A DNA stretch of 64,000 nt from Nitrosopumilus sp. (GCA_965206745.1 OZ242220.1:480001-544000), one strand, 5' to 3'; shown: positions 30,118 through 57,680, numbered from the stretch's first letter. Made by a program: numbers and translations. Notes: generated from the letters alone by a model not told the origin.

Positions 30118-30873
30118 TTAATTTTTTATTATGTTTTTTAATTTTGTATTGGACTGACAATTCCACTCAAAATAACTTAATATTCTTTGATTCAATTCTT
30201 CCTTGCTTTGTCTCCATTTTGGATATGCATGCTCTAAAATACTGAGAAATCTTTCGTTATGTTTTCTTTCTTTAAGATGTACTAATTCATGTACAAACAC
30301 ATAGTCTATACAGTACAATGGTTGTTTTGCCAACTCTAAGTTAAGCCATATTCGTTTATCTTTGATATTGCATGTTCCCCACTTTGTCTTCATTTTTTTA
30401 ATTTTAACCTCTTTTACCTTAACTCCAACTTTCTTCTCCCATTTTTTGAGTAATTTAGGAATGATTTTTTCTAATTCATCACGATAAAATTTTTCAAATA
30501 TCTTTTGTTTTTGATAAATTGTTGTCTTTGGTTTGGTTGTTAGTTTAATGGATGTTTTTTTAGTAATCTTGATTTCTGGTTTTTCTTCATTTTTTTGTAC
30601 GGTTAATTGATATTTTTTACCAAAAATGTAATGACTTTCACCGCTAACATATTCTCTTTTTGTCTGTCTTTCTTGCTTTGAAAATCTTTCTTTTTGTTTT
30701 TTTAACCATGTAGCTTTTGTTATGAGAAATATTCTGAGAGTTTCATCATTTGTTGCAAGTGGAACAGATACCCTAATTCTTCCATCCGGAGGATATACCC
30801 CGAGATGAATATTCTTAATGTCTTTTCTTATTGTCTCTATTTGCAAATTAGATATCTTGAATCTAGTAGCCAT
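30118..30873 (-). CDS. M48/YgjP (DUF45) family metallopeptidase-like protein
   Basis: KMKTKWGTC, YVFVHELVH..HNERF. Follows hsdR. Confidence 0.88.
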   Translation of the reverse strand: MATRFKISNLQIETIRKDIKNIHLGVYPPDGRIRVSVPLATNDETLRIFLITKATWLKKQKERFSKQERQTKREYVSGESHYIFGKKYQLTVQKNEEKPEIKITKKTSIKLTTKPKTTIYQKQKIFEKFYRDELEKIIPKLLKKWEKKVGVKVKEVKIKKMKTKWGTCNIKDKRIWLNLELAKQPLYCIDYVFVHELVHLKERKHNERFLSILEHAYPKWRQSKEELNQRILSYFEWNCQSNTKLKNIIKN

Positions 30874-41251: not shown

Positions 41252-41281
41252 TTGCGTCAATCCTGCAAAAATTTGATTCAA
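41252..41281 (+). repeat. degenerate copy of the hsdS dyad recombination site
   Basis: TTGCGTCAA-TCCTGCAAAAAT-TTGATTCAA. The first 14 bp match the hsdS-A distal site read on the minus strand, and the spacer is again 12 bp. Confidence 0.45.
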
Positions 41282-42255: not shown

Positions 42256-42391
42256 ATGATGGTATTTTTTAATATCTTATTAAATTTTTAGTAGAAAAAA
42301 ATCACAATTGAAAAATATGATCAGATAAAGGATGATTCAAACAATGTTGCTTTTTTCAAAGTGTATTAAGGGTATAACATTCAATAAAAGA

Positions 42392-42931
42392 ATGTCACTT
42401 TCAAGTTCAAAACTTAGATCAGAGATAAAAATTCAAAACACTGTAACCACGGCAGATCTCAAGCAGGAGATAAATCTGACATCTTTTAACAAACACAAAC
42501 ATCTTAGCTCAAATCTAGAACTATACAGATGTGGCTATGTTAAAGATGACACCATGACAGGCAGAGTTACCGTCTTTAGAACCGGAAAACTCATCTCAGT
42601 TGGAACAAAAAGTCCAGGGCAGGCAAAAAAAGAGCTAGCCAAAGCATGTAAGATACTACAGAAATACAAGATTGCAAAACCTGTTAAAATTACTCCACAA
42701 ACAAGAAACATTGTATCAAGATTTGACATGAAGAAAAAATTACCAATAGAAAAACTTGCAAGAACACTGCCAAAATCCATGTATGAGCCAGAACAGTTTC
42801 CTGGACTGATTTATAGAATTCAGGGCAGCTGTGTTGCCCTGATATTTGCATCAGGAAAAGGAGTCATTGCAGGAGCAAAGTCAATAGAGGAAACAAATGC
42901 GGCATTCTTTGATGTAAAATCACGGCTCTAG
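42392..42931 (+). CDS. tbp: divergent TATA-box-binding protein paralogue 1
   Basis: Two TBP repeats: IQNTVTTADL..VTVFRTGKLISVGTKS and RNIVSRFD..YEPEQFPGLIYR..LIFASGKGVIAGAKS. Likely start ATG at 42392. Confidence 0.85.
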   Translation: MSLSSSKLRSEIKIQNTVTTADLKQEINLTSFNKHKHLSSNLELYRCGYVKDDTMTGRVTVFRTGKLISVGTKSPGQAKKELAKACKILQKYKIAKPVKITPQTRNIVSRFDMKKKLPIEKLARTLPKSMYEPEQFPGLIYRIQGSCVALIFASGKGVIAGAKSIEETNAAFFDVKSRL

Positions 42932-43011: not shown

Positions 43012-43935
43012 TTGACTACCTATCCTACATCTAGAGCGACTATCTTGTTTGAGGAGTCAATAAAGTCAAAGTACACCAAAAAGAACTACACGTCACACCT
43101 TAACCAATTCCTGAGATTTGCAGATATGCATTCTGAGAACCAACTGCTGAAAATACCTCATATGGAACTGCAGTACAAGCTAGAAAATTACCTAATAGAG
43201 TTAAAACATACCACAAACCCCAATTCAATATCGTCAAGGTTTCAGGGGATAAAGCACTTTTGTATTATGAACGAGATCAACCTCAACTGGAATATCATAC
43301 ACAAGATGTTCCCGCAAAGACAGAAAACCCAGAGTCTGCGTTCGTACACTTGCAAGGAAATCAGAGAGTTGTTATCTTGTGCAAAAAGTCTGCGTGATAC
43401 AGCCTTGATTCATTTTTTGGCATCGACTGGTGCAAGAATAGGAGTGTTTGATAATGTACTGTCAATGAAACATCTCAGAAAAATATCACACGGTTGCAAT
43501 GCCGTCAAGGTCTATGCAGGACAAGTTGAGGAATATTGGGTTTTTCTTACACCTCAGGCCTCAAGGGCATTGAATGTTTATCACAAATATCGTAAGCAGC
43601 ATGGTGAGATGTTTTGTGAAGACACTCCAATCTTTGCTATAATGAGTGCATCCCATGGACAGCTGGGATGGAGTGGTGCAAGATCTGCAGTATACAGAAC
43701 AGTCTCAAGAAGCAACATAAGACAAGATAAACAAGATAGTAGATATGATGTGCAGGTGGACCACGGATTCAGAAAGAGATTCAACACTATTCTAAAACTG
43801 GATAATTCTGTAAACTATAACATTGCCGAAAAGCTAATGGGACACAAGAATGGACTTGATGGTGTATATCTGACTCCTACTCTAGATGAACTCTTTGTGG
43901 AATTTAGAAAAGTGATGCATAAAATTGAGGTTTAA
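43012..43935 (+). CDS. tyrosine recombinase/integrase
   Basis: Catalytic residues present: STGARIG (R), HGFR (HxxR), LMGH (H), DGVY (Y). Confidence 0.92.
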   Translation: MTTYPTSRATILFEESIKSKYTKKNYTSHLNQFLRFADMHSENQLLKIPHMELQYKLENYLIELKHTTNPNSISSRFQGIKHFCIMNEINLNWNIIHKMFPQRQKTQSLRSYTCKEIRELLSCAKSLRDTALIHFLASTGARIGVFDNVLSMKHLRKISHGCNAVKVYAGQVEEYWVFLTPQASRALNVYHKYRKQHGEMFCEDTPIFAIMSASHGQLGWSGARSAVYRTVSRSNIRQDKQDSRYDVQVDHGFRKRFNTILKLDNSVNYNIAEKLMGHKNGLDGVYLTPTLDELFVEFRKVMHKIEV

Positions 43936-44878: not shown

Positions 44879-45041
44879 TGTATTATTTCAGATAGAATTA
44901 CCCAATTATCAATTTGAATAGAAGATGAGGTATCTAGTGGATAAATTCAGATTTGTAAAAAATCCTCTAAAAACGAAAATATTGATTAATATTTCCATGT
45001 TGTAGTTGGTTTTTGATCCTAATAGAGAATTATGCTTGTAT

Positions 45042-46340
45042 CTATGTCTCTATAACTTGACCGAACTGTAACTTTATAGTTACAGTTAATCTCATGCATA
45101 AAATTATGATGATTATGAATTGTATACAATTTATTGCGTCAACTCCTGACAGGATTGACGCAATTTTTTGTTGTTCTGGTAGATATTTTGGAACGAGTAT
45201 TAACATTTTTTTAATTTCAGTCTTACTAATTTCTAGAAAAGTTGTTCCATATGATAATCGGATTAGGGTATTTTTATTGTTACATAATAAATAAAAAATG
45301 AATAAATTATCAAATTTATTATTACAAATTATATTTTGAAAACCTTGATTGGTAGATATTGGGTTGGCAGTTATTGCACATTCTCCAATAGTTGCTCTAG
45401 AAGTGAGTAAAATTGTACCTTTTGGTAATAATTTAGCTGAACTATCTTTTAATCCTTTTTCTGTAATCTTTCTTTCAGTATTATTAATGTAAGTTGTTTG
45501 TAACTTTGTAATATCTGTTGGAACCGCCCACAATATATTCCCATTCCAGTATTCTTTATTTTTAGAATTTGGTGTGCCACCACTGACTATTTCTCCTATA
45601 TTATCAAGCTTTGTTATTTTCCATTCTTCTGGAATTTCAATCTCTTTTCTAAATAATCCTTTAACTTTCTTAAACTTTGTATGTCTAATTCCTCTAGCCA
45701 ATAATTCTTGCATCAATCCTTTCTTTAATCGTCCAGCTTTATCCACAACTTGTTGTGTATTTTGTATCAATGCGTCAACATTAGAAAGAATTGATGCAAT
45801 TTTTTGTTGTTCGTTGATAAGAGGTAATAAAATTGGCATAATGGAATATTGTTTTGCATTAACATTGGGTTGAACTCCCCATGTTTGTATCGATAATAAC
45901 CATGCCCAATAAAATTTTGAATGTGTTAAATAAAAAAGAAATTTAGAATCAAGATTTTTATTGTCAGGTTTAAAACGAATTAGATATCCTGCAAATGCAC
46001 ATGTTTCATTACTTTCTTGATGAAGATATGTTTTGCCAACTGTTGCGCCAGTTCTTGCAAATAGAATATCTCCTTCATATAAAATATAATCTTGAGCATC
46101 TTCTTCGGATATTGATTTCCATTCTGAATATCTTAATGTTCCATTATCATTTAGATCTGTGATACGTATGTATCGAGGTAATTTTAGATTTTTTTCTATT
46201 GCTGACACAGATACACCATATTCAGCTTTACCAATACAATTTTCAGATAATGTTGTTTTCTTCCATTCTTCTGGAATCTCCATCACTTTTCCAAAAATCC
46301 ATTTTAGTAACTTGTAACCTTGTCTTGGTTTTCTAGCCAT
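45042..46340 (-). CDS. hsdS: hsdS-A: type I S subunit with two TRDs but no C-terminal conserved helix (probable silent cassette)
   Basis: MARKPRQGYK..IPEEW TRD1, central EQQKIASILSNVDA..KKGLMQELL, then TRD2. After EQQKIASILSGVDA the frame runs into unrelated sequence (INCIQFIIIIIL..). Confidence 0.88.
   Translation of the reverse strand: MARKPRQGYKLLKWIFGKVMEIPEEWKKTTLSENCIGKAEYGVSVSAIEKNLKLPRYIRITDLNDNGTLRYSEWKSISEEDAQDYILYEGDILFARTGATVGKTYLHQESNETCAFAGYLIRFKPDNKNLDSKFLFYLTHSKFYWAWLLSIQTWGVQPNVNAKQYSIMPILLPLINEQQKIASILSNVDALIQNTQQVVDKAGRLKKGLMQELLARGIRHTKFKKVKGLFRKEIEIPEEWKITKLDNIGEIVSGGTPNSKNKEYWNGNILWAVPTDITKLQTTYINNTERKITEKGLKDSSAKLLPKGTILLTSRATIGECAITANPISTNQGFQNIICNNKFDNLFIFYLLCNNKNTLIRLSYGTTFLEISKTEIKKMLILVPKYLPEQQKIASILSGVDAINCIQFIIIIILCMRLTVTIKLQFGQVIET
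45135..45167 (-). repeat. IR2-left: distal inverted repeat, pairs with 56921..56953
   Basis: Reverse complement AAAATTGCGTCAATCCTGTCAGGAGTTGACGCA is 32/33 identical to 56921..56953. The site is itself a near-perfect palindrome (45133..45164). Confidence 0.9.
45699..45812 (-). repeat. IR1-left: central inverted repeat, pairs with 56288..56401
   Basis: 114 bp; its reverse complement is identical to 56288..56401 on base-by-base comparison. Confidence 0.95.
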
Positions 46341-46347
46341 AATTGAT

Positions 46348-46890
46348 TTATTTAAGCAACCCATTTAATCTTTGAATTATCTCAAAAGAGGCAGTGTTTA
46401 ACTCATTTGCAGATTTTGCACCTATGATTACAATTTTTCCTGATGCAAAAACAAGACAGCTACAACTATCCAATCCTTTTACTATCATACCTGGAAATGT
46501 TTCAGGATCATACACTACACCATCCATCTTTGTTGATATGATGTCAATCGGTATTGCTTTACCTGTTGTAACTGTAGCTACAATATTTCTAATCTTTGTT
46601 GATAATGTTACATTTTTTATCATGTTGTGTTCTAACAGATGGAATTTAGATTGGTTTAACTGCTCTTTTGCCCTTTTAATTGACTTTGCGCCAACTGATA
46701 TCATCTTACCACTTAGAAAAATAGTAACACGACCATCCATTTCAGGTATTTTGACATATCCGCATCTACCACCATATATTGCCTCATCATAAATACAACA
46801 AGGGATTTTTACAAATTTTAATATGTCTACTTTTTGCTTTAAATCTGCAGTACATACAACATTGTGAATTTTGGGTTTTAGATTCAACAA
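46348..46890 (-). CDS. tbp: divergent TATA-box-binding protein paralogue 2
   Basis: IHNVVCTADL..VTIFLSGKMISVGAKS and IRNIVATV..YDPETFPGMIVK..LVFASGKIVIIGAKS. Likely TTG start at 46890 or 46887. Ends 7 bp before the hsdS-A start. Confidence 0.85.
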   Translation of the reverse strand: MLNLKPKIHNVVCTADLKQKVDILKFVKIPCCIYDEAIYGGRCGYVKIPEMDGRVTIFLSGKMISVGAKSIKRAKEQLNQSKFHLLEHNMIKNVTLSTKIRNIVATVTTGKAIPIDIISTKMDGVVYDPETFPGMIVKGLDSCSCLVFASGKIVIIGAKSANELNTASFEIIQRLNGLLK

Positions 46891-46954
46891 AACAGAACAC
46901 TTTGCGGCTCTTAAATATCCCTCATTTTTGATAAAATATTTAGATGATGTAAAT
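46891..46954. promoter_or_regulatory. putative compact divergent promoter region between tbp2/hsdS-A and hsdR
   Basis: 64-bp AT-rich gap between head-to-head starts, with TATA-like CTTAAATA and TTGATAAAATATTTA. Inferred from position only. Confidence 0.4.
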
Positions 46955-49900
46955 ATGTCAAAACTATTGGATTTTAATGTAGGTACAGGTGATGAGGCAG
47001 AACAATCAGAGATCCCAGCACTAGAACAGCTAGTCAAAATGGGATATCAATATATTTCAAAAAATGACCTAAAAAGAGAACGAAGAAAAACAACCGAAGT
47101 CTTATTGTATGACAGATTAAATAATGCAATTAAAAGAATCAATCCTCAACTAGATTCAGATGGAATCGATGATGCAGTAAATCAGATCAAAGAAGATACA
47201 TTTCCATTTACATATGATACAATGAATACTAATGAAAAGATTCGAGCTAAATTAATTGGATTGTCTCAAACAGGAGGACTGGAACCAATAACAGTTGATC
47301 AACATGATAAAAACAGGACCATAAAAAAGACTGTAAAACTTTTTGATTTTGATGATATAGATAACAATGATTTTATTGTTACAAATCAATTTGAATTGCA
47401 GGGACTCAAAAATCTAATATATCCCGACATTGTTTTATTTGTAAATGGCATTCCATTAGTTATCATAGAATGCAAATCACCATTTAGAAGAAATTGGTTA
47501 GTTGATGCAGTAGAAAAAGAAAATTTCAATAAATATCGTTCTAGAGGAGCAGGTTATGAAAAACTAATGTTCTACAATCACATTCTAGTTGCAACTTGTG
47601 GCACACAAGCAAGACATGGAACAATATCGTCAGATTTAAATCATTTTCAAAATAGCAGATGGTCAAGCGCATATCCATTAACTGAAAAAGAGATTGAAGA
47701 AAAATTTGGAAAAAACAGAGAACAAGAGATTTTAATTGCAGGAATGCTTGACAAATCCCATCTTTTGGATTTACTAAAAAATTATGTACTTTATCAAACA
47801 GTTAACAACAAGCGAATCAAAATTATTGCAAAACATCAACAATATAGAGCAGTCAGAAAATGTGTTGAAAAAATTAAAACTGCAAACACCAGACAAGGAG
47901 GAATTATCTGGCACACTCAGGGTTCAGGAAAATCCTTTACAATGCTGTGGGTTGCAAGGCAGGCAATAGAATATGATAATTTGCCTCTAGTCATAGTCAC
48001 AGACAGGCGTCAATTAGATAAACAAATCCACACTACTTTTACACAAGTTGGATTCCCAAATCCAATAAAGGCATACAAATCAGCACAACTTGCAGATTTT
48101 ATAAAATCACCAAAGGGTAAAACCATGATGACTACAATTCAAAAATTTGAGGAAATTAGTGAATCTACAGATGAGAAAATTATCGTTCTAGTGGATGAGG
48201 CACATCGGTCACAGTTTGGAATCGATGCAGGTGCAATGGATAAAGCAATTCCAAATGGGATTTACTTTGGGTTTTCTGGAACTCCAATTGATAACAAAGA
48301 TAAATCCGTATATCGAGTATTTGGTGATCTAATAGACAAATATGGATTTGAAGAATCAAAAGCAGATGGTGCTACCATCCCGATAAGATATGTTGGACGA
48401 TTGCCAAATCTCTTTGTCGAAGATGATGAATCTATCGATATCTTATTTGATAGAATTATTGGTTCTGAACCAAACATGACGCCAGAACTAAAAGAACAGC
48501 TAAAAAAAGAATATGTGAATAAAGATAAAATTATACAAGCTCCTCAAAGGATTAAAAAAATTGCATTGGATATTGTAGAGCATTACACTAATAACATTCA
48601 AGATAATGGCTACAAGGCAATGATTGTGGCATCATCACAAGAATCTGCAGTACTATACAAAGAAGAATTAGATCGCCTCAATGCTCCGCCATCAAAAATC
48701 ATCATGGATCAAAGGATTGGCAAGACAGGAAAAGATGGAACAAGTTGGGATGTCCATTATCTAACCGATTCTCAAAAAAGACAAATAGAAGATTCTTTCA
48801 AAAATCCAGATAATGAGATTAAAATTTTGATAGTTGTTGATATGTTGCTAGTTGGATTTGATGCACCGATAGTCAAAGTGATGTATCTTGATAAATCCCT
48901 CAAAGAGCATGCACTACTTCAGGCAATTGCACGTGTAAACAGGTCATATGATGAATGGAAAGAAGAGGGATTGATTGTAGATTATTATGGCATAACTAAG
49001 AATATTCAAAAAGCATTAGAAACTTTTGATCCAAAAGATATCAAAGGAGCTTGGGAATCTGATGACTCGCAACTAGATATACTAAAAATATATCATACAC
49101 AAACAATGAATTATCTCAAAGGATTAGATAAAAACAAACCGGAACAAATCATAGAAGCATTTGAATCCATTGATAAAAGAGAGGCATTTGAGGATTATTT
49201 TAAAAAATTTTCCAAAGTTCTAAATTCACAATTATATAAAACGGAATCATCTCAATACATTTCTGATTTTAAGGAATTGAGTAAGATCAGAGCATTGTTG
49301 AGAAACTGGTATGAGAATCCAAAAAATTCTACTCGAAAATATGCTGTGATGATTCAGAAATTAATTGATGATGCAATAGGAGCAACTGGTGTTTCTGAAC
49401 TTGTAAAACCAATGGAAATAACATATGATAATTTCTTAGCATATGTCTTAAAATTTAAATCTTCAAGAGCTAGAACTGCACTTATTAAAAATAAAGCAGA
49501 GCAAGTGATTATGGAAAATTACTCCCATAATCCAGTATATTATGAAAAATTGCGGGAATTACTTAAACGATTAATCTCAGAAGAAAAACAAAGAAGAGAA
49601 GAGAATGCGGAGTATGTTGATTCAACCATGGAGGAAAAATTCAAGGAAATTTATAATAAAGCATTAGATATAGAAAAAGAAAGAAAAAATCTTGGGTTTG
49701 ATAGAGACATAGAATTTTCAATATATGGATTAATTAAAGAATATAAAAAAGATAAGAATAAATCAATTGAAATTACAAAGAGATTATCTGAAAAAATATT
49801 ACCTGAGACAGAAATTATTGAATGGCATCATAAATTAAGCATCAAACGAAAGATTGAAAAAATCACATATGATATTCTAGATTCATTTGGTATTGTGGAT

Positions 49901-49960
49901 GAAGATATATCAAAATTATCGGAAAAGATTTTAACATTGCTCAATTGTGATAACTTGTGA
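46955..49960 (+). CDS. hsdR: type I restriction enzyme R subunit (locus 2)
   Basis: YPDIVLFVNGIPLVIIECK, HTQGSGKS, DEAHRSQ, GFSGTP, VGFDAP, QAIARVNR. Likely start ATG at 46955 (MSKLLDF). Confidence 0.95.
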   Translation: MSKLLDFNVGTGDEAEQSEIPALEQLVKMGYQYISKNDLKRERRKTTEVLLYDRLNNAIKRINPQLDSDGIDDAVNQIKEDTFPFTYDTMNTNEKIRAKLIGLSQTGGLEPITVDQHDKNRTIKKTVKLFDFDDIDNNDFIVTNQFELQGLKNLIYPDIVLFVNGIPLVIIECKSPFRRNWLVDAVEKENFNKYRSRGAGYEKLMFYNHILVATCGTQARHGTISSDLNHFQNSRWSSAYPLTEKEIEEKFGKNREQEILIAGMLDKSHLLDLLKNYVLYQTVNNKRIKIIAKHQQYRAVRKCVEKIKTANTRQGGIIWHTQGSGKSFTMLWVARQAIEYDNLPLVIVTDRRQLDKQIHTTFTQVGFPNPIKAYKSAQLADFIKSPKGKTMMTTIQKFEEISESTDEKIIVLVDEAHRSQFGIDAGAMDKAIPNGIYFGFSGTPIDNKDKSVYRVFGDLIDKYGFEESKADGATIPIRYVGRLPNLFVEDDESIDILFDRIIGSEPNMTPELKEQLKKEYVNKDKIIQAPQRIKKIALDIVEHYTNNIQDNGYKAMIVASSQESAVLYKEELDRLNAPPSKIIMDQRIGKTGKDGTSWDVHYLTDSQKRQIEDSFKNPDNEIKILIVVDMLLVGFDAPIVKVMYLDKSLKEHALLQAIARVNRSYDEWKEEGLIVDYYGITKNIQKALETFDPKDIKGAWESDDSQLDILKIYHTQTMNYLKGLDKNKPEQIIEAFESIDKREAFEDYFKKFSKVLNSQLYKTESSQYISDFKELSKIRALLRNWYENPKNSTRKYAVMIQKLIDDAIGATGVSELVKPMEITYDNFLAYVLKFKSSRARTALIKNKAEQVIMENYSHNPVYYEKLRELLKRLISEEKQRREENAEYVDSTMEEKFKEIYNKALDIEKERKNLGFDRDIEFSIYGLIKEYKKDKNKSIEITKRLSEKILPETEIIEWHHKLSIKRKIEKITYDILDSFGIVDEDISKLSEKILTLLNCDNL

Positions 49961-50652
49961 TTAAAAAAATAAAATATCTTGATTCTGTGATAGAATATGA
50001 CTTAATCAAAAGTAAACGTAGAAAGACATCACAAATCACAATTACACCTGATAAAATAACGATAAGAACACCAGATACGAAATCTTCAGCAGATGTAGAA
50101 AAAATTGTACAAAAAAAGGCACAATGGATATTTAAAAAACAATTACATTTTATTGGACAAAAAAAACCAGTTTTTTCATTAAAATCGCTTTTACTAATTT
50201 ACGGCAAAAATTACAAAATCAAGATTATTCCCAACAATACGGAAAAAACATGTCTGAATGGAGATGTTATAGAATTTCACATATCACAAAAGAAATACAA
50301 TACAAAGCAGATCAAAGCACAGTATGATGCATATTTGAGGAAAAAAGCGTACGTATTGTTTCCAAAATGGACCAAAGTATTAGCAGAAAAAATTGATGTG
50401 CATCCAACCAAAATCAACATCAAAGAGCTCCGAGGTAGATGGGGAAGTGCTACTGCTACAGGTGCGATCAATCTTAATTCCAATCTGATAAAGGCTCCAA
50501 AAAAGATCATCAGATATGTTATTTTTCATGAATTATGTCATTTTAAAATCAAAGAACATTCACATCATTTTTGGAATCTAATGGGACAACATATGCCTGA
50601 ATATAAGGAATCAATAAAATGGTTAGAAGCAAATGGAATCAAAATCAGTTAA
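49957..50652 (+). CDS. M48/YgjP (DUF45) family metallopeptidase-like protein
   Basis: RGRWGSA, YVIFHELCH..HSHHFW. Overlaps the hsdR stop. Confidence 0.88.
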   Translation: MIKKIKYLDSVIEYDLIKSKRRKTSQITITPDKITIRTPDTKSSADVEKIVQKKAQWIFKKQLHFIGQKKPVFSLKSLLLIYGKNYKIKIIPNNTEKTCLNGDVIEFHISQKKYNTKQIKAQYDAYLRKKAYVLFPKWTKVLAEKIDVHPTKINIKELRGRWGSATATGAINLNSNLIKAPKKIIRYVIFHELCHFKIKEHSHHFWNLMGQHMPEYKESIKWLEANGIKIS

Positions 50653-50689
50653 GATGTATTTTTGATGCTAAAATAGTATGATATCGTCT

Positions 50690-50810
50690 ATTCAAAAACC
50701 AAATACAAAAATGTATTCCACAAAGAAAAAGATAACAAGGTTGTTCAGAAAATGCTTACAATGTACATGGTATTGAAAGAAAAAAATGACATATGAAAAG
50801 ACAGATCATA
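50690..50810 (+). mobile_element. IS630-like N-terminal fragment
   Basis: KEKDNKVVQKMLTMYMVLKEK, similar to the fragments at about 24.3 and 54.5 kb. Limits approximate. Confidence 0.4.
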
Positions 50811-50939
50811 TACTTATGCATTCTTCTGATGGAGTATCCATATGGGTACAAAGAGGATCGTCTTTATGCCTTCGTAGAGGAGAGATCTTCCATGAATTAA
50901 TAGGTCTCCATAGATATCATATACAAAACTTAACAAGAT

Positions 50940-51830
50940 AATGCACCCTAACGAATTTTTGTTCATCAGTTTATCACACATCAAATCTTGACGGAAATAA
51001 ATATGCGTGATTATTTTTACCAGTAATCCAAACACATGTTTTTTAATCATCAGTTAATCATATTGTTAGTTATTGATAATATGAGTTAAAAAAATTACAG
51101 TTCTTTTATTCAATGGCTTCAAGCTACCTGTCAGATTACAAACGATCTTGACCTGCAAATCATATCTCATCACACCACACTACAAAAGACAGCGGCAAGA
51201 ATAAATGAAAAGATACTATACATGGTAATAAAACGATTCATCAATCATGTATATGCAAGAGAAATATTTGGAATTGATATATTTGGAATTGAGACAGGCC
51301 GTGCAATAAAACATTATTCATGGAGGGTTCAAAATCAGATATATATTTATCAAGGCATATCTCTATGTTCTGACATATCAACCCAGATTGTCTGCACTAC
51401 AATTGTAGATAATCACCAGTATCTCATGACGTCAAACATGTTTCTTCATCGCTATCAAAAATACATCCTCACAAATTAGTAAAGCCAATGATACCTGACA
51501 AGGGAATAGGATTCAGAATTAATCCACAAATTGATACTCAGTAACAGCATACATTCTGTAATTCCTGTAAGAAGCAGGACAAACAGGGTCAGCAAGGTAA
51601 AAAAGACATGCAGAAAAGAGATGTATCGAAAATTTGAAAAAGAGACATATTTTCAGAGAAATTAAAAAGAGTTGTCTTTTCGGTAATAAAGAGAATGTTT
51701 GATCAAAGATTCTTTCATGTAATGAATCTTAGATAGTAAAAGAAACACCACATAAAATATTGGTCTATAACTGTCACAGAATATACCTGATCGTAAATTT
51801 AGAGATGATTTCTATATTGTCGATCTAACT
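50940..51830 (+). mobile_element. heavily degraded IS5-family (DDE_Tnp_1-like) transposase
   Basis: Frameshifted fragments in the expected order: DKG.DSELIH, VIPVR, KFEKETYFQRN, VFSVIKRMF, LVYNCHR. Confidence 0.65.
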
Positions 51831-51866
51831 AAATCTATATTACTTGAAGACTATCATAGTTATTAG

Positions 51867-53375
51867 TTGTCAGATAAAATTACCCTTGAAGAATTAAAAT
51901 CTTATCTTTGGAAAGCCACTGATATTTTACGGGGATCTCTTGATCCTCAAGAATATAGACAACCGGTAATGACTGTTCTATTTCTAAAGAGATTAAATGA
52001 TACTTTTGAAGAAAATGTTGAAAAATTAATCAAAGAGGGAAATACACAAAAAAAAGCAGAACAAAAATTTCGACACAAGTTCTATGTTCCAGAATCTGCA
52101 CGATGGCATGTACTATCTGATGCATCATCGAATCTGGGTGAAATAATTGATAATGTCTGTAGAGATATTGAAAACAACGTTTCACAACTAGAAGGAGTTC
52201 TCACCAATACTACATACAATGATAAAAAAAAATATCCTGATGATAAATTACGAAAATTAATTGCACATTTTAATGAACTTACACTAAAGAACCAAAATCT
52301 AGAGAAAGAAGACATCTTTGGAGATGCATACGAGTATTTATTGGAGACATTTGCAGATGAAACAAAAAAGAAAGGTGGTGAATTTTTTACTCCAAGGGAA
52401 ATTGTTCAACTTTTAGTAAACATTACAAAGCCACAGGAAAAAATGAAAATCTCAGATCCGACATGTGGTTCTGGTGGTATGTTGGTTGTGTCTAGAAAAT
52501 ATGTCAAAGATCACAGAGGAAATATCGAAAACATTGTACTTGATGGTCAAGAATCTAATTATGGAAATTTAGGAATGTGTAAGATGAATCTAATGTTGCA
52601 TGGTGTGGAGAATTTTAGAATAGAATATGGTGATACCTTGTCTGATCCTAAACTTATTGACTGTGGAAAATTGAAACAATATGATAGAGTATTGGCAAAT
52701 TTTCCATTTTCCATGGATTGGGATAACTCTACTGCATCAAAAGATCCATACAATAGATTTGGATACGGTATTGCACCAGCCAAAGATAAGGCAGACTATG
52801 CATTTATCTTGCACATACTATCATCTCTAAACGAAAAAGGACAAGCAGCCATTGTCTGTTCACAAGGTGTTTTGTTCAGAGGAGGTGAGGAAGGGAAGAT
52901 TAGAAAGAATATGATAATGGGTAATGGATCAAATAATCTTGCAAATGATGTAATTGAGGCAATAATTGCATTGCCTCAAAAGATGTTCTGGGGAACAAGT
53001 ATTCCTGCTTGTGTAATGATACTAAACAAGAATAAGCCTACAAAAAGAAGAAGAAAAATAATATTCATTTACGGCGCAAAGGATTTTGAGGAGGGAAAGA
53101 ATAGAAACAAACTACGCGATGTAGATATGAAAAAAATTATCTCAGCGTTTGAGAAATTTGAAGATATTGACAAATATTGTCATGTTGCAAATATTGAAGA
53201 GTTGGAGGAAAATGAATTTAATCTCAACGTTCCAAGATATGTTGATATTTCAGAGCCTGAAGAAGATATTGATATTCAGAATGCATGGGATGAACTCATA
53301 GAGATCAACACAGTACAAGAAAAACTGAAAAAACAAGTAAAAACAGATCTCAAGGAATTAGGAATAAAGATCTGA
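51867..53375 (+). CDS. hsdM: type I restriction enzyme M subunit (locus 2)
   Basis: LWKATDILRG, GEFFTP, DPTCGSGGML, ANFPFS (variant motif IV), GVLFRG, NLNVPRYV. Confidence 0.94.
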   Translation: MSDKITLEELKSYLWKATDILRGSLDPQEYRQPVMTVLFLKRLNDTFEENVEKLIKEGNTQKKAEQKFRHKFYVPESARWHVLSDASSNLGEIIDNVCRDIENNVSQLEGVLTNTTYNDKKKYPDDKLRKLIAHFNELTLKNQNLEKEDIFGDAYEYLLETFADETKKKGGEFFTPREIVQLLVNITKPQEKMKISDPTCGSGGMLVVSRKYVKDHRGNIENIVLDGQESNYGNLGMCKMNLMLHGVENFRIEYGDTLSDPKLIDCGKLKQYDRVLANFPFSMDWDNSTASKDPYNRFGYGIAPAKDKADYAFILHILSSLNEKGQAAIVCSQGVLFRGGEEGKIRKNMIMGNGSNNLANDVIEAIIALPQKMFWGTSIPACVMILNKNKPTKRRRKIIFIYGAKDFEEGKNRNKLRDVDMKKIISAFEKFEDIDKYCHVANIEELEENEFNLNVPRYVDISEPEEDIDIQNAWDELIEINTVQEKLKKQVKTDLKELGIKI

Positions 53376-53599
53376 TCAATGATATCTGCTCTATAAATTA
53401 GGAAATATTTTGTACAATTTCAGATAAGACATCAAATGATATCTTTGTTGCATGTAATTGTGTAGTTAATCCTACAACGTTTTTCCATAGGATTCATTTG
53501 CAGGTAAATCAGTTGACGTATGTTGTGGTTTGTTACAGGAAAGAATATTGAGCTGTTGTGTTATGTGTCGTATTTCAGTTGTTATAATCCATGCATCCA

Positions 53600-54580
53600 A
53601 AATATTGTAGATCTAGACTTACGATCAAAAATTTATCTCCTGTTGCAATTATCACCCTGTTGAGATATCGGATAACATCCATGTTGTATCGAACTGTTCT
53701 AAAGTGTTCGGAGATTTTATCCCACATATCACTGTTGGATAATATTCAGATATACACAGATCTCATTTTGCCTGATGTCCACATTTCTCCACTGCATCCA
53801 AATGTGGAGATCTTTTTGGTAGGTAGATCATCTTGATGTTCTTGTCTCTTTTGAGCAGCTCTTGGATATTGTTTGTCAGATGTTGAGGTGTCTTATCCTC
53901 TGTTACTACAATTTTACCAAAATGTCTTTGCATGTCAATGATGTATTTTTCAAATATCTTTATATCAATCAATCATATGTCCTAAAGAATTGCTTGTCAT
54001 CAATTGAAAGTGCACCATACACTGCAACTTTTTGATGCAGTCCAATGTATGGAATCATTATAGATTTCCTTTGATAGATCAGTATTTACATCACGGTGTT
54101 GCGTCATGAATAAAGAAAGATTTGTTTTGACTAGAATAATAAATCTCTTGTGTTTTAGGAATCCAATCTTGTTTTGTGTACGGCGTTGCCATCTGTATAC
54201 TGCCTTACTGTCTTCTCTGTTAATGTATATTCTTCTGGCACATTTAGGGATCCTATTGTATATCTGCATCATCTTGTTGAGTGATGTTATATGCAACGTT
54301 GCATTGGTTTTATGGAATATGTGTTGATATAATTTTGACAGAGTGATCTGCAAATTAGATATCTCATTCATTATGCGGCCAATCTTTCTGCGTTGTATTT
54401 TTGAATGCTTACCATTACGAGAAAGATCCCTGAAGACGTTCATGCTGGCCTCGTTGAATCTTGATATTCATTTGCCTACTCATTCTGAACAACACATAGT
54501 ATGTTGGCAATCTCCTCATACATCACCTTTTTTCCAATACCATGTGAACTATAATCATTCATCTACTGATTAGAATATTT
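53600..54580 (-). mobile_element. IS630-family transposase pseudogene
   Basis: Fragments RDLSRNGKHSKI (HTH region) and GKIVVTEDKTPQH..IYLPKRSPHLDAVEKC (DDE_3 'LP..SP.LN.IE' motif), with multiple stops and frameshifts. Confidence 0.75.
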
Positions 54581-55178
54581 TTTTCCTTGTCACATATTTT
54601 TTTAAATTTTTTATGTTTGGGTTATTCATGTCATACATGAACTGAGATGATCCTTATACTCAGAGTTTTACAAAATTTGATACATGAATGAGTTTTTTCT
54701 CGTCAGTCTAGTCTGATTCTGCGAATCACACTAGCAAAAATCTAACATATGATAAGAGGTAATTTTATATGGAAATATTTTTTCTACTCTGCAAACTGTA
54801 AATATATACGGATGACAATGAAGGCATGTTACAAGAATTCCTGAAGTACAAATTATTCATTTACTTGTTAATCAAACACATAACAACACCAACAGAATCA
54901 AGATCATACCAACTATGTCTAGATGATTTGATGGTTTTTTAAATTATCATGCATAGTTTTTTTAGACATCCTGTCTCCTTTCTTCCATTTCATTTGCATT
55001 CTCGCTCGTATTTTCTTGAATAGTCTTTTGATCTCTGGTATTGCGTAAATTCTTTAGATTTCATTGGTATTTTTGAGGCATATCGTTTAAAAGTTTTTTG
55101 ATTTGATGTGCTACTGATCTATAAGCTTTTTGTTATTTTTAGAGGTGAGTTTATGGGCAACATTGATTTCTTCTCATT

Positions 55179-55742
55179 ATGCAAATTTTTATATCTCATG
55201 CCAAAGAAGATAATCCCATAGTCTACCAAATATTGAAAATGCTAGACGATAATCAAATTCGTCATTGGCAGGATCTAACTCGAATAGATGTAAGTAGTTC
55301 TATTAACAAAGAGATAAACGATGCAATTAGTTCTTCTAGTCATTTTTTATTAATATGGTCAAAAAATGCAAATAAATCAACGTTTGTTCAAAAAGAATAT
55401 AATTCAGCTATTACTCCAGATTATGATTATAAATTAAAGAAAATAATTATAAGATTAGATGATACTCGTCTACCTGCATTATTGGCTGATTTACGATATT
55501 ATAGAATTAGTTCTGATGAATTAGAAAAAACTATGCATGAGATAATTTTTGACATTAAGAAACTAGATAATGAAGATGAAAGACAAAAGAAATTTGATGA
55601 TTATCTAGATGAAAAATTTGACAATATTTTTATTGCAGATCACGAATACAGCACATCATATGCATTAAAAAATATAGATAACAAAACATATCATGAAAAC
55701 ATGCTAAGTTGGGAAGATGTTTTAAATGAGGAAGGAAATTGA
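55179..55742 (+). CDS. TIR-domain protein (TIR_2-like) with short C-terminal extension
   Basis: IFISHAKED, EINDAISSS..FLLIWS.NA.KS.FVQKEY with the putative catalytic Glu. The stop overlaps the hsdS-B start. Confidence 0.85.
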   Translation: MQIFISHAKEDNPIVYQILKMLDDNQIRHWQDLTRIDVSSSINKEINDAISSSSHFLLIWSKNANKSTFVQKEYNSAITPDYDYKLKKIIIRLDDTRLPALLADLRYYRISSDELEKTMHEIIFDIKKLDNEDERQKKFDDYLDEKFDNIFIADHEYSTSYALKNIDNKTYHENMLSWEDVLNEEGN

Positions 55743-57052
55743 AAAAAAGAAATAGATACAAGAGAGTAAAAGGATTGTTTGGTGAATATGAAGAAATTCC
55801 AGAAGAATGGGGCTTTTCAATTTTAAATAAACTAACTTTACATAATGATCAGAGTTCCATCCGAATGGGTCCATTTGGAAGTAGTCTAAAAAAACATGAA
55901 TTATTAGATGAAGGAAAAATTAAAACAATCTGGATTGAAAATATTGTAAATAATGAATTTTCATGGGAATATCAGAAATATATCTCTGAAGAAAAATATA
56001 AACAACTTGGAAATTTCACAGTAAAACCAAATGATCTTCTTATTACAATGATGGGAACTTTGGGAAGAGTAGCTATAGTTCCAAAAGACATCGATATTGC
56101 CATAATCTCGTCACATCTTCTAAAAATTACATTAGATAATGACAAAATGATTTCAGAATATTTGTATTATTTCTTAAAATCAAATTTTGCATTTCGACAG
56201 ATTACAAAAGAATCTAGAGGGATGGTAATGGGAGGTTTGAATACAAAAATTATTAAAAATCTATGGATAATTATTCCAACAATTCTAGAACAACAAAAAA
56301 TTGCATCAATTCTTTCTAATGTTGACGCATTGATACAAAATACACAACAAGTTGTGGATAAAGCTGGACGATTAAAGAAAGGATTGATGCAAGAATTATT
56401 GATAAAAGGAATAAAACATGACCAATTTAAGAAAATAAAAGGATTATTTGGTAAAGAGATAGAGATTCCTGAAGATTGGGAGATCAAGAAAATTAATGAA
56501 ATAGGAGAGATAATAACTGGTAATACTCCATCAACAGATAACCAAGAATATTATGGTAATGAATATTTGTGGGTTAGCCCATCAGATATAAATCAACAAA
56601 AATTTATTGATAATACTAATTCAAAATTATCCCGTAAAGGATTCGAAGTTTGTAGAAGTATACCTAAATATGCGGTTTTAATTGTTTGTATTGGTTCGAC
56701 TATAGGAAAAATTGTAATAGCATCCAAACAAATGTCAACTAACCAACAAATTAATTCAATAATTTGTAAGCAATTTGATCCAGAATTTGTGTATTATCAA
56801 ATACTAAAAAATAATAAATTAATCAAAAACATATCTAATCAAGCTGCAGTTCCAATTTTAAACAAAACAGATTTTGGCATAATTAAAATCATTATACCCA
56901 CTAATTATGAAGAACAAACCAAAATTGCATCAATCCTGTCAGGAGTTGACGCATACATTCAAAAAAATCAAGAATACAAGAAACATCTGGAACTTCTAAA
57001 GAAAGGATTAATGCAAAAATTACTAACTGGTAAAATACGTGTAAAAGTATGA
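55739..57052 (+). CDS. hsdS: hsdS-B: full-length type I S subunit (probable expressed allele)
   Basis: IPEEW TRD1, central conserved helix, IPEDW TRD2, and complete tail YIQKNQEYKKHLELLKKGLMQKLLTGKIRVKV. Confidence 0.94.
   Translation: MKKRNRYKRVKGLFGEYEEIPEEWGFSILNKLTLHNDQSSIRMGPFGSSLKKHELLDEGKIKTIWIENIVNNEFSWEYQKYISEEKYKQLGNFTVKPNDLLITMMGTLGRVAIVPKDIDIAIISSHLLKITLDNDKMISEYLYYFLKSNFAFRQITKESRGMVMGGLNTKIIKNLWIIIPTILEQQKIASILSNVDALIQNTQQVVDKAGRLKKGLMQELLIKGIKHDQFKKIKGLFGKEIEIPEDWEIKKINEIGEIITGNTPSTDNQEYYGNEYLWVSPSDINQQKFIDNTNSKLSRKGFEVCRSIPKYAVLIVCIGSTIGKIVIASKQMSTNQQINSIICKQFDPEFVYYQILKNNKLIKNISNQAAVPILNKTDFGIIKIIIPTNYEEQTKIASILSGVDAYIQKNQEYKKHLELLKKGLMQKLLTGKIRVKV
56288..56401 (+). repeat. 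IR1-right (114 bp)
   Basis: Identical inverted copy of 45699..45812. Contains TTGCATCAA-TTCTTTCTAATG-TTGACGCA (56301..56329). Confidence 0.95.
56921..56953 (+). repeat. IR2-right (33 bp)
   Basis: Contains TTGCATCAA-TCCTGTCAGGAG-TTGACGCA (56925..56953). Inverted copy of 45135..45167. Confidence 0.9.
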
Positions 57053-57194
57053 CTTTGGGAATGTGCCTAGAATGGAAAGATCATCAAAATTCAGAACAAG
57101 ACTGATTCCTATGCCTAGAATGCCAGTTGTATCCTTGGGGGAGCCACAAAACGGGTATTAGGTATAAAATACCCCTTTCCTCACTTGACGATTA

Positions 57195-57680
57195 GTGGAT
57201 AGAATAAAGCGACTCTCATTTGAGGTTCTAGTAGATCACAAATCCAAGTTTGGCGAGGACTTTGCTGATAACAAAAAGGCACTTGATCTGATATCGATAA
57301 TCCGTTCAAAGGGATTAAAAAATGAGGTTGCAGGATATATTACAAAATTTATCAAAAACGAGATTCGTGAGGAGAAGACCAAGCAGGCAAGAATTGAGGC
57401 GGCAAAATCTGAGCAGCAGTTTGAGGAACCATCTGAGGCAGAACTCGGAAATGATGTACCTCAAGAGGCAGATAAAGTGACAACAGATGATAATACAGAT
57501 CAAGCAGTATCTGACATCCCTGATATTACAGAGCCTGCCACAGCAGACACAGCTCAAACAGTACCTGATATCCCTGAGACTGTAGAACCTGCCACAGCAG
57601 ACACAGCTCAAACAGTATCTGAGACTGCAGAACCTGTCACTGAGAATCCATCCGAACCAGTCAAAGAACCTGAATCATAA
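57195..57680 (+). CDS. rps17e: 30S ribosomal protein S17e with acidic repetitive C-terminal extension
   Basis: IKRLS..FGEDFADNKK..RSKGLKNEVAGYITK. The tail has EPATADTAQTV twice. Confidence 0.88.
   Translation: MDRIKRLSFEVLVDHKSKFGEDFADNKKALDLISIIRSKGLKNEVAGYITKFIKNEIREEKTKQARIEAAKSEQQFEEPSEAELGNDVPQEADKVTTDDNTDQAVSDIPDITEPATADTAQTVPDIPETVEPATADTAQTVSETAEPVTENPSEPVKEPES
57530..57636 (+). repeat. in-frame tandem repeat (54-bp period) in the rps17e tail
   Basis: CCTGCCACAGCAGACACAGCTCAAACAGTA occurs twice. Confidence 0.8.

What the first reader, a model, noticed from the sequence alone, without database searches (positions are those of the whole stretch)
45042..57052. Candidate archaeal phase-variable type I R-M shufflon: two outward-facing hsdS genes with nested inverted repeats
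Seen: hsdS-A (minus strand, 46340->45042) and hsdS-B (plus strand, 55739->57052) bracket tbp2, hsdR, the M48 gene, hsdM and the TIR gene. Their four TRDs are different. Yet they share a perfect 114-bp inverted repeat (45699..45812 / 56288..56401) in the central conserved region and a 33-bp one (45135..45167 / 56921..56953) after TRD2. hsdS-A loses HsdS similarity exactly at the end of the 33-bp repeat, and the only C-terminal tail lies outside the right repeat. Inference: inversion at IR1 (about 10.5 kb) and/or IR2 (about 11.8 kb) yields four full-length alleles (B1-B2, A1-B2, A1-A2, B1-A2), with the left position acting as a tail-less silent cassette. Established: invertible hsdS loci are known in bacteria (Streptococcus pneumoniae SpnD39III/ivr, Mycoplasma pulmonis hsd loci with hsdS genes flanking hsdR/hsdM, Bacteroides fragilis). 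I do not know of a described archaeal example; a literature check is needed.
Basis: partly seen in the sequence, partly recalled or inferred. Interest (0 to 1): 0.95.

Follow-up and report, generated by a model that had tools for sequence, protein, structure and literature searches.

The report
Archaeal invertible restriction-specificity gene switch
An ammonia-oxidising archaeon carries a restriction-modification locus that looks built to swap its DNA-recognition modules by flipping DNA, with its own recombinase and short target sites, a design so far shown to work only in bacteria.

Summary
Two intact, outward-facing hsdS genes bracket tbp2-hsdR-YgjP-hsdM-TIR. They share a perfect 114-bp inverted repeat. 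The second repeat is 32/33, not perfect. hsdS-A loses HsdS similarity exactly at that repeat's outer edge.

A Xer-like tyrosine recombinase (43012-43935) lies 1.1 kb away. Each repeat holds a 28-bp dyad site, TGCRTCAA-N12-TTGAYGCA, shaped like dif (11-6-11). The genome has five such sites, all in this window.

The design recurs in related Nitrososphaeria genomes. Close recombinase orthologues had such sites within 10 kb in 18 of 22 places examined. Of 69 sites, 52 have an inverted partner with the same centre and none a direct partner. Six loci have a tail-less hsdS cut at the same point. CR1 and CR2 centres differ, in three loci only synonymously.

Inversion itself is not shown. The public runs are 31-mer contigs that cannot span the 114-bp repeat, and no alternative allele was found in public data. 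Eight literature searches found no described archaeal case.

Best reading (0.6): a recombinase-driven hsdS shufflon, a new archaeal variant of a known bacterial kind.

The parts
43012..43935 (+). Xer-like tyrosine recombinase (307 aa), the candidate invertase
   Evidence: PF00589 E 1e-5, 25.9 bits, below the 27.1 cutoff. R142, R254, H278 and Y286 are invariant in 103 homologues. Profile against PDB: XerA 5hxy E 6.7e-17. AF2 pLDDT 96.1. Foldseek: XerA, Cre-loxP, XerH. Orthologues lie beside hsdS pairs in relatives.
42332..42931 (+). TBP paralogue 1, directly upstream of the recombinase
   Evidence: PF00352 E 2.5e-35. The TBP-then-INT pair recurs in L074, L076 and L081.
45042..46364 (-). hsdS-A: TRD A1, CR1, TRD A2, CR2 core, then a non-HsdS tail (tail-less copy)
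45135..45162 (-). CR2 core site of hsdS-A (28-bp dyad). HsdS similarity ends at its outer edge.
45771..45798 (-). CR1 core site of hsdS-A
45699..45812 (.). IR1 left arm (perfect 114 nt)
46348..47037 (-). TBP paralogue 2, immediately upstream of hsdS-A on the same strand, inside the invertible segment
   Evidence: PF00352 E 1.8e-30. 43% identical to TBP1.
46871..49960 (+). hsdR
   Evidence: SWI2_SNF2, HSDR_N and T1R_D3 domains.
49957..50652 (+). YgjP-like metallopeptidase
   Evidence: PF01863 E 3.6e-49.
51867..53375 (+). hsdM
   Evidence: N6_Mtase E 8.5e-103 and HsdM_N.
55179..55742 (+). TIR-domain gene, overlapping the hsdS-B start by 4 nt
   Evidence: TIR_2 E 2.3e-18. Coordinates.
55739..57052 (+). 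hsdS-B: TRD B1, CR1, TRD B2, CR2, then the canonical C-terminal helix
56288..56401 (.). IR1 right arm (perfect 114 nt)
56302..56329 (+). CR1 core site of hsdS-B
56926..56953 (+). CR2 core site of hsdS-B
56954..57052 (+). The only canonical HsdS C-terminal tail in the locus, outside both site pairs
41253..41280 (+). Orphan fifth dyad site of the second arm type (TTGATTCA). It encodes a CR-like peptide outside any listed ORF and is probably a relic.
   Evidence: Compare the class-2 sites in L072, L079 and L082.

Best explanation
The locus is a site-specific-recombinase shufflon for the specificity subunit of a type I R-M system in a Nitrososphaeria (thaumarchaeal) genome.

Proposed mechanism. 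A Xer-like tyrosine recombinase (43012-43935) binds 28-bp dyad sites written into the codons for ...IASILSxVDA at the start of each HsdS conserved region. I read each site as 11-nt arms around a 6-nt centre, like dif. The CR1 sites of the two genes share one centre (TTTCTA in coding orientation). The CR2 sites share another (TGTCAG). Each pair is in inverted orientation.

Recombination within a pair would therefore invert 10.5 kb (CR1) or 11.8 kb (CR2). CR1 x CR2 events, which would delete a TRD, would be disfavoured by the mismatched centres. Only one canonical C-terminal helix exists (56954-57052), outside both pairs. Each state would thus give one complete HsdS (B1B2, A1B2, A1A2 or B1A2) and one tail-less one. 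This would change the bipartite target of methylation and restriction in a subpopulation.

Shown: the anatomy, the recombinase fold and catalytic residues, the sites and their recurrence in relatives. Inferred: binding, cleavage positions, the actual inversion, and that the tail-less product is inactive.
For: (1) Anatomy is confirmed.

(2) Recombinase. All 6 close orthologues hit PF00589 (best E 2.6e-6). A 103-sequence alignment has exactly R142, R254, H278 and Y286 invariant. Profile against PDB: XerA 5hxy 6.7e-17, 4a8e 5e-11, XerD 1e-5, XerH 6e-5. The AF2 model has pLDDT 96.1 and pTM 0.90. Foldseek finds XerA (3e-10), Cre-loxP (TM 0.62-0.67), XerH, IntI and lambda Int.

(3) Sites. TGMRTCAA-N12-TTGAYKCA matches exactly 5 times in the 1.86-Mb genome, all in this window. 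Four are at the hsdS CRs. The reversed control gives 0.

(4) Recurrence near hsdM relatives. Of 35 hsdM-related loci, 6 have a second inverted hsdS with repeats at CR1 and CR2. Those 6, and none of the other 29, encode a 54-68% identical recombinase and carry the dyad.

(5) Recurrence class-wide. The exact dyad occurs in 27 of 401 genomes, against 1 of 401 for the reversed control. For recombinase hits of 485 bits or more (26 hits), 22 were examined with context and 18 have such sites within 10 kb.

(6) Design. Of 69 sites in 27 loci, 52 have an inverted partner in the same locus with the same 12-nt centre (1 mismatch allowed). None has a direct partner. The pairs I looked at, including all three in L067, are nested.

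(7) In L011 and L024 and L069, CR1 and CR2 encode the same peptide. Their centres differ only at synonymous positions, and each variant matches its inverted partner.

(8) Codon constraint. In the core, Leu is CTG in 11 of 11 and Val is GTT in 11 of 11. Downstream invariant Leu positions use 4-6 codons. In 21 CR motifs of loci without the recombinase, the same peptide motif uses varied codons, the residue after VD is not Ala, and no dyad forms.

(9) In the window and 5 relatives, one hsdS loses similarity exactly after ...SGVDA, at the outer edge of the dyad.

(10) The dif sites of archaeal and bacterial Xer enzymes are 11-6-11 (PMC8371274, section 20 read).
Against: No inversion was observed.

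The two runs that hold the locus are 31-mer contigs that break at IR1. They show only the parental junctions across IR2 (X1 pieces 44534-45179 and 56372-57563). No strand-changing joint is listed, but contigs drop rare variants.

No alternative allele exists among public proteins: next to the genome's own protein, the best hit is 66% identical. The IR1 63-mer has no match in metagenome contigs. Only one close recombinase orthologue, on a 1.4-kb contig, was found there.

The recombinase is convergent with hsdS-A and separated from it by a 277-aa ORF. Four of the 22 orthologue places examined have no hsdS or site nearby.

More distant members of the recombinase family are common: 214 of 401 genomes match. 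Integrases of this general kind are described as integrases of thaumarchaeal mobile elements that carry type I R-M genes (PMC6563490, passages read).

Site-specific exchange does not explain why 114 bp are identical. That needs gene conversion or a recent duplication.

Partner sites lie inside homologous gene segments, so their identical centres are not fully independent evidence.

In L011, L070 and L080 the recombinase match is split over two reading frames, which may mean decay there.
Confidence: 0.6

Rival explanations
1. Static relic on a mobile island. The low-GC 30-58 kb region is a cryptic integrated element. The recombinase is its integrase, for integration and excision. hsdS-A is a left-over duplicate kept similar to hsdS-B by occasional gene conversion. 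No programmed inversion takes place.
For: GC is about 0.27-0.36 over 30-58 kb against about 0.45 in the flanks. Related strains diverge after 44835 and before 57108, so 44836-57107 is an indel. Krupovic et al. 2019 report XerC/D integrases together with type I R-M, M48 and plastocyanin genes on thaumarchaeal integrated elements. Four of 22 orthologue places have no hsdS. No inversion was seen.
Against: No direct repeats flank the island, and no tRNA-Cys or tRNA-Thr fragment of 13 nt or more is repeated. hsdS-A is an intact 440-aa frame with two good TRDs. The cut exactly at the dyad edge recurs in 6 loci. The sites always come in inverted pairs, never direct ones. Synonymous positions of the core are constrained only where the recombinase is present. 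A decaying duplicate predicts none of these.
Confidence: 0.2
2. The segment does invert, but by general homologous recombination (RadA-dependent) between the 114-bp perfect repeat. The neighbouring recombinase plays no part.
For: A perfect 114-bp repeat is a good substrate for homologous recombination, and its length is not explained by site-specific exchange. In S. pneumoniae, spnIII rearrangement was reported to be independent of all known site-specific recombinases (PMC6620402, title and abstract start only).
Against: IR2 has only 24 exact bases, yet it marks the exact boundary of the tail-less copy. In relatives the CR1 repeat can be as short as 48-64 bp at 86-96%, while the 28-bp core and the recombinase are kept. 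The synonymous CR1/CR2 centre differences have no role under this model.
Confidence: 0.12
3. The recombinase moves TRD cassettes by excision and reintegration, as reported for the pneumococcal tvr/SpnIV locus, rather than by simple inversion.
For: Similar TRD types (60-78% identical) sit at TRD1 or TRD2 positions, and in either gene, in different genomes. L067 holds isolated tail and TRD fragments with 6 sites. The tvr precedent is PMC6265443 (abstract start only).
Against: No site has a direct-orientation partner with the same centre (0 of 69), so excision has no obvious substrate in the present arrangements.
Confidence: 0.05

Closest known systems
Mycoplasma pulmonis hsd1/hsd2 invertible loci (recalled from memory; no paper on them was read here)
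   Same: Two hsdS genes in inverted orientation flank hsdR and hsdM. Recombination sites lie inside the hsdS coding sequence at two positions. Chimeric hsdS genes result.
   Different: This locus is in an archaeal host. It has a XerA-like recombinase and 28-bp dif-like sites with pair-specific centres. One copy always lacks the C-terminal helix. TBP, TIR and YgjP genes lie inside the segment. Inversion is not shown here.
Streptococcus pneumoniae SpnD39III (ivr/cod) locus with the CreX/PsrA tyrosine recombinase (PMC4948785 and PMC7096588, abstract starts only)
   Same: One expressed hsdS plus partial or variant hsdS copies in inverted orientation. Inverted repeats lie in the conserved regions. 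A tyrosine recombinase is adjacent. In relatives such as L011, L016, L023, L024 and L069 the recombinase even lies between the two hsdS genes.
   Different: In the window the invertible segment is 10.5-11.8 kb and contains hsdR and hsdM. Both hsdS 5' halves have upstream genes on their own strand. Only the 3' helix is unique.
Surveys of bacterial hsdS invertons: Huang 2020 (PMC7672463), Atack 2020 (PMC7394358), Milman 2023 (PMC9881135)
   Same: They use the same criteria: several hsdS genes, inverted repeats, a nearby invertase.
   Different: Milman et al. state that archaea were not scanned. Huang et al. only note that many archaea have several hsdS genes. The main text of Atack et al. does not contain 'archaea', and its supplements were not visible.
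XerA/dif chromosome-dimer resolution in Archaea (5hxy, 4a8e; PMC8371274, section 20)
   Same: These are the closest solved structures and sequence relatives of the recombinase. The target has the same 28-bp 11-6-11 geometry.
   Different: There are several sites per genome, all inside hsdS genes and in inverted pairs, rather than one dif. The gene is missing from 187 of the 401 class genomes searched, so it is not a housekeeping gene.
Cryptic integrated elements of Thaumarchaeota (Krupovic et al. 2019, PMC6563490)
   Same: Low-GC islands carrying a XerC/D-type integrase, HsdM/S/R, M48 and plastocyanin genes. The S subunit is counted more often than M or R (11, 9 and 6).
   Different: That paper treats the integrase as a mobility gene. 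Its main text contains neither 'inversion' nor 'hsdS'.

Membership tests
Invertible (phase-variable) type I R-M hsdS shufflon | Complete type I system (hsdR, hsdM, hsdS) at the locus | tested here: met
   Pfam domains.
Invertible (phase-variable) type I R-M hsdS shufflon | Two or more hsdS genes or gene parts in inverted orientation with different TRDs | tested here: met
Invertible (phase-variable) type I R-M hsdS shufflon | Inverted repeats inside the hsdS conserved regions | tested here: met
   114/114 and 32/33.
Invertible (phase-variable) type I R-M hsdS shufflon | Site-specific recombinase gene at the locus | tested here: met
   43012-43935 lies 1.1 kb from hsdS-A. Orthologues are linked to hsdS pairs.
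Invertible (phase-variable) type I R-M hsdS shufflon | Both orientations present within one population (reads or PCR) | tested here: inconclusive
   Only 31-mer contigs were available. They cannot span IR1 and show only the parental IR2 junctions. No alternative allele was found in public data.
Invertible (phase-variable) type I R-M hsdS shufflon | Several methylation motifs sharing half-sites | not testable with these tools
   No methylome data.
Tyrosine recombinase, Xer-like (two-domain, no arm-binding domain) | Catalytic R...H-x-x-R...H/W...Y residues | tested here: met
   R142, R254, H278 and Y286 are invariant in 103 sequences. H251 is invariant in the 6 orthologues.
Tyrosine recombinase, Xer-like (two-domain, no arm-binding domain) | Fold | tested here: met
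   pLDDT 96.1. Foldseek probability 1.00 to XerA, Cre and XerH. The Pfam score alone is below the curated cutoff (25.9 against 27.1 bits).
Tyrosine recombinase, Xer-like (two-domain, no arm-binding domain) | Acts on a 28-bp site of two inverted arms around a short centre | tested here: inconclusive
   Sites of that shape exist and co-occur with the gene. Binding and cleavage were not tested.
Integrated mobile element with its own integrase (thaumarchaeal CIE) | Flanking direct repeats (att sites), often a tRNA fragment | tested here: not met
   No flanking direct repeat was found, and no tRNA-derived repeat longer than 12 nt. Repeats as short as 8 bp are reported for such elements and would escape this test.
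Integrated mobile element with its own integrase (thaumarchaeal CIE) | Island of deviant composition that is absent from relatives | tested here: met
   Low GC over 30-58 kb. Related strains diverge at 44835 and 57108.

The most novel reading that the evidence does not exclude
Ammonia-oxidising archaea (Nitrosopumilaceae and relatives) possess a conserved family of programmed DNA-inversion switches. In it, a XerA-like recombinase acts on dif-like 28-bp sites encoded within the HsdS coiled-coil codons. Pair-specific 6-nt centres act as natural heterospecific spacers, so that TRDs are reshuffled without deletions. If so, this would be the first programmed, gene-altering inversion system and the first phase-variable R-M system described in Archaea. 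The associated TBP paralogues may be part of its control.
Probability: 0.5. Interest if true: 0.85.

Novelty: new variant of a known kind. Interest (0 to 1): 0.72.

Why it matters
Invertible hsdS loci give bacteria reversible, population-level diversity in restriction specificity and in the methylome. They have been studied almost only in host-associated bacteria.

If the same strategy operates in ammonia-oxidising archaea, an abundant group of nitrifiers, it would affect virus-host dynamics and gene flow. It would also affect how metagenomic methylation motifs and MAG assemblies of these organisms are read.

It would show a Xer-type enzyme recruited for programmed gene alteration in Archaea.

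It would also provide a compact recombinase with 28-bp targets and naturally orthogonal centre variants. That could be a useful genetic tool for archaea.

The hypothesis is directly testable with long reads or a two-site inversion assay.

Tried and rejected
Read evidence. One run search and one read-laying run were allowed. X1 (share 0.99) and X2 (0.92) are Logan contigs. They break at 45728/45790 and 56317/56372, that is at IR1, so they cannot phase the orientation.
- I considered reading the X2 contig 45135-45811 (depth 32, against 17-19 in the flanks) as a sign of recombinants. I rejected this. Inversion does not change copy number, and X2 depth varies from 7 to 58 across the locus, which points to several strains.
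- The X1 break at 45150-45179 is better explained by a minor strain variant.
- The X3 raw reads (17 laid) join 45926-45943 to 55725-55748. Both stretches are A-rich low-complexity sequence, so I treat these reads as spurious.
- X4 holds only the flanks.

Alternative junctions. The second contig of the assembly (2066 bp) has no similarity to C1. The IR1 63-mer has no hit in metagenome contigs. The HsdS-A protein search found no allele closer than 66%. The recombinase search in metagenome contigs gave one close orthologue on a 1.4-kb contig.

Structure. The first AF2 model, from 6 sequences, had pLDDT 45 and was discarded.

Own-genome PF00589 six-frame search. It found nothing at E 0.1 or better, even though hmmscan on the ORF gives E 1e-5. 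The family is too divergent for that screen.

HicB idea. A small conserved ORF follows the tail-less hsdS in L004, L011, L016 and L024. By eye it looked HicB-like, but Pfam gave nothing better than E 0.047 for the ORF I tested, so I dropped the name. A TATA-like element about 60 nt past the site may be its promoter. That is inference only.

att sites. None were found.

Supplementary files of papers were closed. The supplements of Atack 2020 and Data S2 of Chanin 2023 may list archaeal candidates that I could not see.

Full report
OBSERVATION. The window comes from a 1.86-Mb, 99.6%-complete archaeal genome. Its hsdM relatives are all Nitrososphaeria (Thaumarchaeota), mostly Nitrosopumilaceae.

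At 45042..46364 (-) and 55739..57052 (+) lie two intact hsdS genes, each with two Methylase_S domains. Between them are a TBP paralogue, hsdR, a YgjP-like metallopeptidase, hsdM and a TIR-domain gene.

The 114-bp inverted repeat 45699-45812 / 56288-56401 is perfect and cannot be extended. It lies within 263 nt that are 83% complementary. The '33-bp' repeat is 24 exact bases, one mismatch at 45159, then 8 exact bases.

HsdS-A ends ...KIASILSGVDA followed by 30 unrelated residues. HsdS-B continues with the usual C-terminal helix. The four TRDs differ. The observation therefore stands, apart from the one mismatch.

ORF 43012..43935 (+), 1.1 kb from hsdS-A, gives a weak PF00589 hit: E 1e-5 and 25.9 bits, below the 27.1-bit cutoff. 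I strengthened this in three steps.
- A profile search of 1.84 billion representatives found 3443 relatives at E 1e-3 or better.
- In an alignment of 103 of them, the only invariant columns are R142, R254, H278 and Y286, the tyrosine-recombinase catalytic set.
- That profile hits archaeal XerA structures (5hxy 6.7e-17, 4a8e 5e-11), XerD and XerH.

The AF2 model reaches pLDDT 96.1. Foldseek matches it to XerA, Cre-loxP complexes (TM 0.62-0.67), XerH, an integron integrase and lambda Int. A first model built from only six sequences was useless.

THE SITES. All four HsdS conserved-region starts share a 28-bp dyad, TGCRTCAA-N12-TTGAYGCA, which encodes IASILSxVDA. A slightly generalised pattern matches exactly five times in the whole genome, all in this window. 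Four matches are the CR sites and one is an orphan at 41253. The reversed control matches 0 times.

I read the site as 11-nt arms around a 6-nt centre. This is the geometry given for archaeal and bacterial dif sites in PMC8371274 (section 20). The CR1 pair has centre TTTCTA and the CR2 pair TGTCAG. Each pair is inverted, so exchange would invert rather than delete.

RECURRENCE IN RELATIVES.
- Among 35 hsdM-related loci, six (L004, L011, L016, L017, L023, L024) have a second, inverted hsdS with repeats at CR1 and CR2.
- Exactly these six encode a 54-68% identical recombinase. Only these six carry the dyad; the other 29 loci have no hit.
- In a sample of 401 genomes of the class, the exact dyad occurs in 27. 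The reversed control occurs in 1.
- The recombinase profile matches 214 genomes, with a distinct top tier of 26 hits at 485 bits or more in 21 genomes.
- I examined 22 of those 26 places with context. Eighteen have dyad sites (1 mismatch allowed) in hsdS genes within 10 kb. Four have none: L071, L075, L077 and L081.
- The four not examined lie on short contigs or were not fetched.
- A second arm type (TGAATCAA / TTGATTCA) goes with a different type I family, in L067, L072, L073, L076, L079 and L082.

DESIGN FEATURES THAT ARGUE FOR FUNCTION.
(a) Of 69 sites in 27 loci, 52 have an inverted partner in the same locus with the same 12-nt centre (1 mismatch allowed). None has a direct partner. The pairs I looked at, including all three pairs in L067, are nested.

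(b) CR1 and CR2 centres always differ within a gene. In L011 and L024 and L069, both CRs encode the identical peptide and the centres differ only at synonymous positions. Each variant is shared with its inverted partner.

(c) In the core, synonymous positions are nearly fixed: Leu is CTG in 11 of 11, Val is GTT in 11 of 11, Gly is GGA in 10 of 11. Invariant Leu and Gly positions a few codons downstream use 4-6 codons. The left arm was part of that script's selection pattern, so only codons from the third base of the Leu codon onward are unbiased. One search selected by peptide only and shows the same.

(d) In 21 CR motifs of related loci without the recombinase, the same EQQKIASILSxVD peptide uses varied codons. 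The next residue is not Ala, so no right arm forms.

(e) In the window and five relatives, one hsdS loses HsdS similarity exactly at the outer edge of the CR2 dyad. A sixth locus, L066, has a non-canonical tail beginning four codons later. A decaying pseudogene would not be cut at the same nucleotide six times.

CAVEATS. Partner sites lie in homologous gene segments, so their identity is partly inherited. Related genomes are not independent samples.

HOW IT WOULD WORK. Inversion at CR1 exchanges the 3' halves. The tbp2-linked A1 gains B2 and the only canonical tail. The hsdM-TIR-linked B1 gains A2 and the junk tail. Inversion at CR2 exchanges only the tails.

Both 5' halves keep their upstream genes. 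tbp2 abuts or overlaps hsdS-A, and TIR overlaps hsdS-B by 4 nt. The left copy is therefore 'tail-less' rather than silent. That it is inactive is inference from the role of the distal helix in HsdS.

Comparison of the three loci of the 'flanking' type is compatible with both states existing in nature. In the window and L004 the hsdM-linked hsdS has the canonical tail. In L066 it has the non-canonical one. This compares different species, so it does not show switching.

WHAT IS NOT SHOWN. I could not observe inversion.
- The two runs holding the locus are 31-mer contigs. They stop 30 nt into IR1 from each side. Across IR2 they show only the reference junctions, and no strand-changing joints are listed. 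Contigs drop rare variants, so this is weak evidence against frequent CR2 inversion and no evidence about CR1.
- No alternative allele appears in public proteins or metagenome contigs.
- The assembly's small second contig is unrelated.
- The perfect 114 bp is not explained by site-specific exchange. Relatives have 48-213 bp at 86-96%, so gene conversion or recency must be invoked.

RIVALS. The region from 30 to 58 kb is low in GC. Related strains diverge at 44835 and 57108, so the locus is an island. Krupovic et al. 2019 (passages read) describe thaumarchaeal integrated elements with XerC/D integrases, type I R-M, M48 and plastocyanin genes. In that view the recombinase is a mobility gene.

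I found no att-like direct repeats or tRNA fragments. Very short att sites would escape that test. This rival explains neither the inverted-only pairing, nor the conserved truncation point, nor the synonymous constraints. Homologous recombination at IR1, or tvr-like excision and reintegration, remain possible contributors.

LITERATURE. Eight full-text searches and passages from nine papers found no described invertible hsdS locus in Archaea.
- Milman et al. 2023 say archaea were not scanned.
- Huang et al. 2020 mention only that many archaea have several hsdS genes.
- Chanin et al. 2023 found 12 archaeal invertons in 42 long-read sets, none described as hsdS in the passages read. They credit Atack et al. 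2020 with a computational hint.
- The main text of Atack et al. has no mention of archaea.
- Reviews of archaeal R-M, archaeal tyrosine recombinases and prokaryotic epigenetics report none in the passages found.
- Supplements were closed, so candidate lists there may include archaea.

VERDICT. The finding is real and richer than reported. It is a member of a conserved, recombinase-linked, double-hsdS architecture in ammonia-oxidising archaea. I give 0.6 to an active or recently active recombinase-driven shufflon. I file it as a new (archaeal, Xer-like, dif-like-site) variant of a known bacterial kind, with interest 0.72. One long-read data set would settle it.

Noticed in passing
window 42332-42931 (+) and 46348-47037 (-); L066, L074, L076, L078, L081: Two divergent TBP paralogues, 43% identical to each other, belong to the module. 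One is directly upstream of the recombinase and the other directly upstream of hsdS-A. TBP-then-INT or TBP-then-hsdS pairs recur in five related loci. The genome has six TBP-like genes in all. Why a TATA-binding protein travels with an R-M shufflon is unexplained.
   Followed up: partly
window 41253-41280: Orphan fifth dyad site of the second arm type. It encodes a CR-like peptide (..LLASILQKFDS..) outside any ORF of 100 aa or more. It lies between a 207-aa ORF and a 306-aa ORF that have no Pfam hit. It is probably the relic of another hsdS cassette.
   Followed up: partly
window 30118-37484 (-): A second complete type I R-M operon: YgjP-like, HsdR of 1009 aa, HsdS of 399 aa with one clear TRD hit, and a long 800-aa HsdM. 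It has no dyad sites. With the AIPR gene at 27505-29256 it makes 27-58 kb a defence island.
   Followed up: no
window 55179-55742 (+): A TIR-domain gene (TIR_2, weak ThsB_TIR) sits inside the R-M operon between hsdM and hsdS-B and overlaps the hsdS-B start. L004 has an AAA_33 kinase-like ORF at the equivalent place.
   Followed up: no
L004, L011, L016, L024, about 60-300 nt downstream of the tail-less hsdS: A small conserved ORF follows the truncated hsdS, preceded by a TATA-like element. The window keeps only the first ~60 nt of this region. Pfam gave no significant family for the ORF tested.
   Followed up: partly
window 57495-57602, in the S17e-like ORF 57195-57680: A 54-nt tandem duplication (83% identical) lies inside the ribosomal protein S17e-like gene. 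A related strain in run X4 shows length differences there (joints 'goes back 51' and 'skips 45').
   Followed up: no
window 44835 and 57108; 56344-56368: Contigs of a related strain (X4, and a minor variant in X1) diverge from the window after 44835 and before 57108, so the whole shufflon is an indel between strains. X1 also holds a depth-60 contig with four substitutions in the IR1 region, so that sample is not clonal.
   Followed up: partly
G000 whole genome; contig C2: A six-frame PF00589 search finds no canonical tyrosine recombinase (XerA) in this 99.6%-complete genome. The assembly's second contig is 2066 bp, has GC 0.376 and has no similarity to the chromosome.
   Followed up: no
L067 (G100) 6500-13700: A more complex relative has six sites in three perfectly nested inverted pairs, mixing both arm types. 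It also has isolated TRD fragments and a tail-only fragment, and would be a good target for long-read testing.
   Followed up: partly
L023 13875-14951: The second hsdS of this Cenarchaeum-like locus is cut short by a 358-aa ORF that looks unlike its surroundings and is possibly an insertion element. Its partner CR2 site is missing.
   Followed up: no
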